Shown: one piece after another, positions 20,710 through 21,296 of the stretch | How the letters are laid out: each line of letters starts with the position of its first letter | How positions within the stretch are numbered: position 1 is the first letter of the stretch | Origin: a virus | Virus genome (UHGV): UHGV-0250493 | DNA length: 26,823 bases | Strand: one strand, 5' to 3' | The notes under the pieces: model-generated | Told to the model about the DNA's origin: nothing | Database searches by the model: none | What the model saw: the letters and a program-made list of their open reading frames with translations, nothing else | Translations under genes and position numbers: made by a program

Positions 20710-21084
20710 ATGAAAAAGGATCTGAAAACGCTGGCGCTGGCCAGACTGTCAGGGTTTCGTCATAAAACGGTGAAGGTGCCGGAATGGGGTAATGTCAGCG
20801 TGGTGCTGCGGGAGCCTTCGGCAGAGGCCTGGTATCTGTGGCAGGAAGTGCTCAATGGTGATGGAGAGGATGACGATACCCTGTCGGTGGTGGCGAAAAC
20901 CCGCCGTAACCTGGAAGCGGATGTGACGCTGTTCTGCGATGTCCTGTGTGATACGGATCTGCAGCGGGTGTTCGCTCCGGACGACCGTGAGCAGGTGCTG
21001 GCCGTCTATGGTCCGGTACATGCCCGGTTGCTGCGTCAGGCACTGGAACTGATCGCTGATGCAGAGTCGGCCAGAAAAAAGTAG
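20710..21084 (+). CDS. tail assembly chaperone (gpG-like) ending in a slippery heptamer
   Basis: 124 aa from ATG 20710. The gene ends ...GCC AGA AAA AAG TAG, giving the canonical -1 frameshift heptamer A AAA AAG (21075-21081) just before the stop. Confidence 0.6.
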   Translation: MKKDLKTLALARLSGFRHKTVKVPEWGNVSVVLREPSAEAWYLWQEVLNGDGEDDDTLSVVAKTRRNLEADVTLFCDVLCDTDLQRVFAPDDREQVLAVYGPVHARLLRQALELIADAESARKK

Positions 21085-21142
21085 CCCGCCCGGAAATTCG
21101 CTTTCTGATGCGACTTGCGCTCCGTCTGGGGCGCACCTTAAC

Positions 21143-21286
21143 GGTCCTGCGGTGGCGGATGAGTTCGACAACCCCACCACGGATATCCGTAAGGACAGAT
21201 GCAGCAAGTGCATGCGCGGGTGTGAACTGCGCAGGAATGTCGGCAATTTTGGCGGTTTCCTTTCCATTAATAAACTTTCGCAGTAA
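21143..21286 (+). pseudogene. L: 3' remnant of tail gene L (last about 48 codons)
   Basis: Frame-2 translation GPAVADEFDNPTTDIRKDRCSKCMRGCELRRNVGNFGGFLSINKLSQ* matches the C-terminus of lambda gpL. No upstream L, M, H or T sequence is present. Confidence 0.7.
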
Positions 21287-21296
21287 ATCCCGGTTT

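What the first reader, a model, noticed from the sequence alone, without database searches (positions are those of the whole stretch)
21075..21296. Tape-measure region missing: chaperone gene with intact frameshift site joins directly to a 3' remnant of L
The tail assembly chaperone ends with the classic -1 slippery heptamer A AAA AAG immediately before its stop. But the expected T extension, tape measure H, M, and most of L are absent. Only the last about 48 codons of L remain (21143-21286), followed by intact K, I, J and lom. The junction lies between about 21085 and 21142. A lambda-type tail cannot assemble without the tape measure, so this prophage should be tail-defective. A side effect is that the -1 frame after the slippery site runs without a stop into the K reading frame, so a low-level chaperone-K fusion is theoretically possible.
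Basis: partly seen in the sequence, partly recalled or inferred. Interest (0 to 1): 0.55.

Follow-up and report, generated by a model that had tools for sequence, protein, structure and literature searches.

The report
Tail-gene deletion in defective prophage
A lambda-like prophage of E. coli has lost 4.4 kb of tail genes (tape measure, M, most of L) in one clean deletion, so it cannot build a tail; this is ordinary prophage decay.

Summary
The tail chaperone gene G (20710-21084) ends with the in-frame slippery heptamer A AAA AAG (21075-21081), followed by TAG.

Compared with a nearly identical intact prophage (E. coli NCCP15648), one 4,425-bp deletion has its junction at 21139/21140, with 2 nt of TA microhomology. 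It removes:
- the whole T domain; only 20 codons of the -1 frame remain
- the 1,080-aa tape measure
- M
- the first 184 codons of L

The last 48 codons of L remain (21140-21286). K, I and J are intact.

No tape measure or M gene lies elsewhere in the window or in 41 kb of a sister genome. The same junction occurs in five other assemblies that I checked, including one complete chromosome, so it is not an assembly collapse.

The -1 frame is open from 21081 to the K stop. A 443-aa G-K fusion is therefore possible on paper; it is probably an accident of a deletion whose length is a multiple of three.

The prophage also carries a 4.3-kb inversion (12290-16630) that splits the portal gene and the end of terS, so its head genes are broken too. 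This is a multiply defective ompW-site prophage: ordinary decay, of low interest.

The parts
19979..20695 (+). Major tail tube protein (V-like, 238 aa, with a C-terminal Ig-like domain). Intact; it lies upstream of the deletion.
   Evidence: Pfam Ig_3, Phage_TTP_11 and Phage_tail_2. One aa difference from the intact relative. Annotated as major tail subunit in AF58.
20710..21084 (+). Tail assembly chaperone G (124 aa), intact.
   Evidence: Pfam Phage_TAC_1, residues 1-124 of 124, E 1.7e-61. Identical to G of the intact NCCP15648 prophage.
21075..21081 (+). Slippery heptamer A AAA AAG in the G zero frame, directly before TAG at 21082-21084. This is the G/GT -1 frameshift site.
   Evidence: Sequence. 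In the intact relative a -1 shift here gives a 226-aa GT protein with a Phage_tail_T domain.
21081..21140 (+). Remnant of the T extension: the first 20 codons of the -1 frame (VARPEIRFLMRLALRLGRTL). It ends upstream of the Pfam T domain.
   Evidence: Identical to L003 up to 12501. The T domain maps to GT residues 152-222.
21139..21140 (.). Deletion junction. The dinucleotide TA is shared by both parental sites, inside a 10-of-14 imperfect direct repeat. 4,425 bp are missing relative to L003 (12502-16926).
   Evidence: Three-way alignment. BLAST end points.
21140..21286 (+). 3' remnant of minor tail protein L: the last 48 codons plus the stop. It has no start codon of its own.
   Evidence: Pfam Phage_tail_L profile positions 158-206 of 206. 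100% identical to residues 185-232 of intact L. RefSeq annotates it as a pseudogene in AF58.
21297..22040 (+). Tail tip protein K (247 aa, JAB/MPN plus NlpC/P60 domains), intact.
   Evidence: Pfam Prok-JAB and NLPC_P60. No aa differences from the intact relative.
21081..22040 (+). Open -1 frame from the slippery site to the K stop. Hypothetical 443-aa product: G (124 aa), T' (20 aa), 52 aa of out-of-frame L remnant and spacer, then K (247 aa).
   Evidence: Translation. No stops in this frame across 21081-21296. ORF 21108..22040 is in the ORF list.
22037..22618 (+). Tail assembly protein I (193 aa), intact.
   Evidence: Pfam Lambda_tail_I. Three aa differences from the relative and no internal stops.
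22961..26434 (+). Tail tip and host specificity protein J (1157 aa), intact.
   Evidence: Annotated as gpJ in AF58 and NCCP15648. Full length with no internal stops.
26502..26823 (+). 5' part of lom (Ail/Lom outer membrane protein), cut by the end of the window.
   Evidence: AF58 annotation at L001 25903-26502. Translation.
12290..16630 (-). Second lesion of the same prophage: a 4.3-kb inverted segment. It carries terL, the protease-capsid fusion gene, a 73-aa ORF and the first ~149 codons of portal. It splits the portal gene and replaces the last 8 codons of terS.
   Evidence: BLAST against intact L003: window 12288-16630 equals L003 7669-3327 at 99.95%. Gene calls on other contigs. Junction sequences.

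Best explanation
This is the scar of one illegitimate-recombination deletion of about 4.4 kb in the tail module of a lambda-like prophage with HK97-type head genes, integrated next to ompW.

The break joined codon 20 of the -1 frame T extension of the chaperone gene to codon 185 of L. The join is at a shared TA, within a weak 14-nt direct repeat. The event removed the T domain, the tape measure H, M and the N-terminal four fifths of L.

Consequences:
- The tail initiator needs H, held by G and GT, together with M, L, K, I and J. It can no longer form, so the prophage cannot make tails.
- G, the slippery site, K, I and J were left untouched because they lie outside the break, not because they still work together.
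- The deletion is a multiple of three. T and K are in the same frame, and that frame was already open for 90 codons upstream of K in the parent. A ribosome that slips at A AAA AAG would therefore read through into K. This is most likely a by-product with no function.

Steps shown here: the breakpoints, the gene content lost, the absence of H and M nearby, the recurrence of the junction in independent assemblies, and the open frame.

Steps inferred: the mechanism of deletion, the tail-less phenotype, and the order of events. I infer that the tail deletion came first and that two different head lesions followed in two sub-lineages.
For: - Breakpoints and size. The left flank matches intact prophages up to 21140, the right flank from 21139, and 4,425 bp are missing relative to L003.
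- Flanks: 99.5-100% identical to the intact NCCP15648 prophage in 200-nt bins for 1 kb on each side.
- Identity of the lost genes in the intact relative: T (Phage_tail_T), H (Phage_HK97_TLTM, TMP_3, Tape_meas_lam_C; 1080 aa), M (Phage_min_tail) and L (Phage_tail_L).
- No H or M elsewhere: tblastn of T, H, M and L against the window and the 41-kb AF58 locus finds only the T stub and the L tail.
- The junction is real. The identical 28-mer junction is in the AF58 complete chromosome, metagenome contig OBWP01000022.1, GCA_034197025.1, ERZ28628840 and ERZ27278190.
- The junction is rare and absent from phage records. It is in 1 of 5,426 complete E. coli genomes, and 0 of 259 matching phage records span it. 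About 1,244 genomes have the intact G-T arrangement.
- There is no long repeat at the junction that could cause an assembly collapse.
- Role of G, GT and H in lambda tail assembly: PMC5009743.
- Further decay of the same prophage: the inversion that splits portal, and in AF58 a terL-portal deletion and a fragmented tail fibre region.
Against: Nothing in the data contradicts a deletion. The limits are these:
- I could not search the whole host genome, so a tape measure supplied in trans by another prophage is not excluded.
- No induction, PCR or expression data exist here.
- The order of events rests on parsimony from only two arrangements.
Confidence: 0.93

Rival explanations
1. Assembly artefact: the 4.4 kb is present in the real genome and was collapsed or skipped by the assembler.
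For: Lambdoid prophage tail modules are repeated many times in E. coli genomes, with a median of 3 and up to 23 places per genome. Such repeats can confuse short-read assemblers.
Against: - The identical junction is in a complete circular chromosome (AF58) and in at least four other assemblies from different projects.
- The two parental sites share only 2 nt, or 10 of 14 imperfectly, so there is no repeat to collapse through.
- Both flanks are colinear with one intact prophage.
Confidence: 0.02
2. The deletion is real, but the element still spreads. Tape measure, M, L and GT would come in trans from a co-resident lambdoid prophage, so that it behaves like a helper-dependent element.
For: - E. 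coli genomes often hold several related tail modules.
- Integrase, excisionase, Q, the lysis genes, K, I and J are intact.
Against: - In the window's lineage the portal gene is split and terS altered by the inversion. In AF58, terL and portal are truncated. Head and packaging functions would therefore also have to come from a helper.
- No phage record carries the junction.
- Nothing here tests whether a helper is present.
Confidence: 0.03
3. The G-T'-K frameshift fusion, or the retained K-I-J-lom block, has been kept by selection for a new host-beneficial function. On this reading the element is domesticated rather than decaying.
For: - The -1 frame is open over 320 codons from the slippery site to the K stop.
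- K, I and J carry no disabling mutations.
- The arrangement persists in the 56 contigs that carry the inversion marker. All three marker-bearing loci that reach the tail region also have the deletion.
Against: - The open frame is explained by the parent sequence. The K frame is already open for 90 codons upstream of K in the intact phage, and the frame match had a one-in-three chance.
- The 52-aa linker is out-of-frame L sequence.
- Flanks are about 100% identical to intact phages, so the deletion is recent and intact genes need no selection to explain them.
- There is no significant RNA structure change or stimulator.
Confidence: 0.02

Closest known systems
Phage lambda G/GT tail assembly chaperone with programmed -1 frameshift (Levin, Hendrix and Casjens 1993; Xu, Hendrix and Duda 2004, 2013, 2014; reviewed in PMC5009743)
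   Same: - The chaperone gene lies directly after the major tail gene.
- The X XXY YYZ heptamer sits at the very end of the gene.
- In intact relatives the -1 frame encodes a lambda-type T domain (Pfam PF06223), followed by the tape measure, M, L, K, I and J in lambda order.
   Different: - The heptamer is A AAA AAG. From memory, lambda's is G GGA AAG.
- G belongs to Pfam Phage_TAC_1.
- In this window the T domain and the chaperone's client, the tape measure, are deleted, so the frameshift site has lost its purpose.
ompW-site lambdoid prophages of Shiga-toxin-producing and other E. coli (PPompW phages such as LC567822.1; the NCCP15648 prophage in NZ_CP009050.1)
   Same: - Same integration site (ompW) and the same gene order.
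- 95-100% DNA identity in the head-tail and tail modules.
   Different: Those records carry T, tape measure, M and L in full, with terS, terL, capsid and portal colinear. This prophage has the 4,425-bp tail deletion and a 4.3-kb head inversion.
Cryptic prophages of E. coli K-12 (Rac, Qin, DLP12, e14), named from my own knowledge
   Same: They are lambdoid prophages that stay integrated after losing structural genes through deletions, while scattered genes remain intact.
   Different: Those are much more eroded. This one is at an early stage, with a few discrete lesions on an otherwise near-intact genome.

Membership tests
G/GT-type tail assembly chaperone with programmed -1 frameshift | A chaperone ORF lies immediately downstream of the major tail protein gene. 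| tested here: met
   V-like gene at 19979-20695, then G at 20710-21084. Pfam Phage_TAC_1 at 1.7e-61.
G/GT-type tail assembly chaperone with programmed -1 frameshift | [quoted passage not shown] | tested here: met
   A AAA AAG at 21075-21081, with codons AGA AAA AAG TAG.
G/GT-type tail assembly chaperone with programmed -1 frameshift | The -1 frame encodes a T-type extension domain. | tested here: not met
   Only 20 codons of the extension survive. Pfam Phage_tail_T is found in the intact relative's GT (6.7e-18) but not in the window's -1 product.
G/GT-type tail assembly chaperone with programmed -1 frameshift | A tape measure gene lies directly downstream. | tested here: not met
   tblastn with the 1080-aa tape measure finds nothing in the window or in 41 kb of AF58.
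G/GT-type tail assembly chaperone with programmed -1 frameshift | Ribosomes actually shift at the site at a low, fixed rate. | not testable with these tools
   This needs a reporter assay, ribosome profiling or mass spectrometry.
Defective (cryptic) prophage | A phage genome integrated in the chromosome, with an attachment-site scar and an integrase. | tested here: met
   In the sister genome AF58, intact ompW, integrase and excisionase lie at the left end and an ompW 3' fragment at the right end. The window itself does not reach either end.
Defective (cryptic) prophage | Loss or disruption of genes essential for making virions. | tested here: met
   T domain, H, M and most of L are deleted. 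Portal is split and terS altered by the inversion.
Defective (cryptic) prophage | No infectious particles are produced on induction. | not testable with these tools
   This needs induction, electron microscopy and plaque assays. The only indirect hint is that no phage record spans the junction.
Lambda-type tail tip module (M, L, K, I, J) | All five genes are present and full length. | tested here: not met
   M is absent, and L is reduced to 48 codons with no start codon. K, I and J are full length.

The most novel reading that the evidence does not exclude
The slippery site now drives low-level synthesis of a 443-aa chaperone-K (JAB plus NlpC/P60 peptidase) fusion whenever the late operon is transcribed. 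This new protein, or the retained K-I-J-lom block, would give the host some benefit that helps keep the element in its lineage.
Probability: 0.02. Interest if true: 0.4.

Novelty: already known. Interest (0 to 1): 0.12.

Why it matters
It matters little beyond annotation. It marks this ompW-site prophage as unable to form tails, and in this lineage heads as well. It should therefore not be counted as an inducible phage in prophage surveys.

It also gives a tidy, datable example of stepwise prophage decay: one shared tail deletion, followed by two different head lesions in sister lineages. The exact junction sequence can serve as a lineage marker. The frameshift read-through into K is a curiosity that shows how a deletion can re-target a recoding signal, but nothing suggests that it is used.

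Tried and rejected
- **Tape measure elsewhere.** tblastn of T, H, M and L against the window and 41 kb of AF58 found only the two stubs.
- **Assembly collapse.** Rejected: the junction recurs in five other assemblies and there is no repeat at the break.
- **Junction in one-genome-per-species contigs.** No hits. This is uninformative, because E. coli has very few representatives there.
- **Significance of the heptamer alone.** Rejected: there are 12 copies in the window against 3.7 expected.
- **New promoter or terminator at the junction.** None found in 20500-21500.
- **Frameshift-stimulating RNA structure created or destroyed by the deletion.** Folds downstream of the site are not better than shuffles in either the deleted or the intact version (z -0.67 and -1.33).
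- **Inverted repeats that could make the head inversion a reversible switch.** None at the end points. The parental sites share a short direct, not inverted, motif.
- **Chance of an open 72-codon off-frame.** My rough estimate (38%) mixes coding and non-coding frames and should not be used. The cleaner argument is that the K frame is already open for 90 codons upstream of K in the intact parent.

Full report
**What is at the coordinates**

The sequence shows an ORF from ATG 20710 to TAG 21082-21084. Its 124-aa product matches Pfam Phage_TAC_1 over the whole profile (E 1.7e-61). It follows a lambda-like major tail protein gene at 19979-20695.

The last codons are AGA AAA AAG TAG. The heptamer A AAA AAG (21075-21081) is therefore in the X XXY YYZ register required for -1 slippage. 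On its own the heptamer means little: AAAAAAG occurs 12 times in the window against 3.7 expected. Its meaning comes from relatives. In the intact prophage of E. coli NCCP15648 (L003) a -1 shift at the same site gives a 226-aa protein whose extension carries Pfam Phage_tail_T (6.7e-18). This is the G/GT arrangement known from lambda, in which G and GT hold the tape measure and GT recruits the tube protein (PMC5009743).

**Mapping the break**

- Megablast of 20600-21700 against 5,426 complete E. coli genomes found a single genome that spans the region, AF58 (NZ_OZ547038.1). All other hits cover only 21139 onward.
- A query of the left side matched about 1,244 genomes up to 21140, where they continue into 'tail assembly protein T'.
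- NCCP15648 carries both flanks in one prophage. Its gene order is G, T, tape measure (1080 aa), M, L, K, I, J, lom.
- Relative to it, the window lacks L003 12502-16926, that is 4,425 bp.
- In 200-nt bins for 1 kb on each side, identity to this intact prophage is 99.5-100%. This is one clean event on a near-identical parent.
- The two parental sites share only TA at the join, within a 10-of-14 imperfect direct repeat (TATCCGAACTGCGG and TAACGGTCCTGCGG). That is typical of illegitimate recombination or slipped replication. The mechanism is my inference.

**What was lost and what remains**

Lost:
- the T extension after its 20th codon; the Pfam T domain lies at GT residues 152-222, beyond the break
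- the tape measure (Pfam Phage_HK97_TLTM, TMP_3, Tape_meas_lam_C)
- M (Phage_min_tail)
- residues 1-184 of L

Remaining:
- The last 48 codons of L (21140-21286), matching Pfam Phage_tail_L positions 158-206. They have no start codon of their own. RefSeq already annotates the fragment as a pseudogene in AF58.
- K (247 aa, identical to the intact relative), I (193 aa) and J (1157 aa), all without internal stops.
- lom, which is only partly inside the window (26502-26823).

- tblastn with T, H, M and L against the window and the 41-kb AF58 locus found only the T stub and the L tail.
- The 28-nt junction is present in the complete AF58 chromosome and in metagenome contig OBWP01000022.1. It is also in three further assemblies reached through another marker: GCA_034197025.1, ERZ28628840 and ERZ27278190.
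- With no repeat at the break, an assembly collapse is not a tenable explanation.
- None of 259 matching phage records spans the junction. This fits an element that no longer yields particles.

**The frameshift read-through**

The -1 frame from 21081 has no stop until the K stop at 22040. This gives a hypothetical 443-aa product:
- G, 124 aa
- T stub, 20 aa
- 52 aa from the L remnant read out of frame plus the spacer
- K, 247 aa

There is an ordinary explanation. The deletion is 3 x 1475 bp. T and K are in the same frame, and in the intact parent the K frame is already open for 90 codons upstream of the K start. No promoter-like or terminator-like site was created at the junction. Folding downstream of the slippery site is no better than shuffled controls, with or without the deletion. 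I regard the fusion as a possible minor by-product, not a feature.

**The rest of the prophage**

Comparison with L003 shows that window 12288-16630 is an inverted copy of L003 3327-7669 (99.95%). Its content:
- terL (16608..14947)
- the protease-capsid fusion gene (14883..12946)
- a 73-aa ORF
- the first ~149 codons of portal

All now lie on the minus strand. The portal gene is split, and the last 8 codons of terS are replaced, which gives a chimeric 196-aa terS. That exact chimeric protein is recorded on 56 contigs. None of the 5,426 complete genomes has the inversion junction. Every inversion-bearing locus that reaches the tail region also has the tail deletion.

AF58 shares the tail deletion but not the inversion. 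Instead it joins an un-inverted terL 5' part to a portal 3' part. The most parsimonious order is that the tail deletion came first, and two independent head lesions followed in sister lineages. This is an inference.

In AF58 the element sits at ompW with intact integrase and excisionase. It has a fragmented tail fibre region at the far end.

**Verdict**

The interpretation, a tail-defective prophage, is supported. The element is in fact multiply defective. This is textbook prophage decay, and part of it is already flagged as a pseudogene by RefSeq. Interest is low. The only mildly unusual aspect is that an intact recoding signal now points into K.

Noticed in passing
window 12290-16630 (junctions at 12289/12290 and 16630/16631): A 4.3-kb inversion relative to intact relatives. 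It carries terL, the protease-capsid gene, a 73-aa ORF and the portal 5' end. It splits portal and gives a chimeric 196-aa terS. Each junction has a 2-nt overlap, and the two parental sites share CTGGTGG(T/C)G(A/G)AT in direct orientation. The chimeric terS is on 56 contigs, but the junction is in none of 5,426 complete E. coli genomes.
   Followed up: partly
L001 (AF58, NZ_OZ547038.1) 16928-17840: The sister genome shares the tail deletion but has a different head lesion. An un-inverted terL 5' fragment is fused to a portal 3' fragment, so about 5.2 kb is missing. This implies that the tail deletion is the older event.
   Followed up: partly
window 17710-17991; L003 8810-9342: A 162-bp (54-aa) tandem repeat lies in the 3' part of the unusually long portal gene (861 aa). 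L003 has 3.3 copies at 95% identity. The window has two units (324 bp) fewer. Portal remnants of 558 aa and 666 aa occur among related contigs, and several contigs break here.
   Followed up: partly
window 16589-18439: The C-terminal extension of the portal protein gives a weak, sub-threshold Pfam hit to carbohydrate-binding module CBM_5_12 (E 7e-4). This is odd for a portal protein.
   Followed up: no
window about 4536-7627: Downstream of Q and a DNA methyltransferase gene the backbone reads tRNA-Ile, tRNA-Arg, a frameshifted DUF3927 gene, an iraM/PmrD-like gene on the minus strand, then a SASA-family esterase gene. No toxin gene is annotated in this stretch (AF58 annotation transferred to the window).
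   Followed up: no
window 22619-22960: A 342-nt stretch between I and J has no annotated gene. It is also present in intact relatives.
   Followed up: no
window 12191-12197 and 12236-12242: Two more AAAAAAG heptamers lie in the 3' part of terS. The window has 12 in all against 3.7 expected from shuffles.
   Followed up: no
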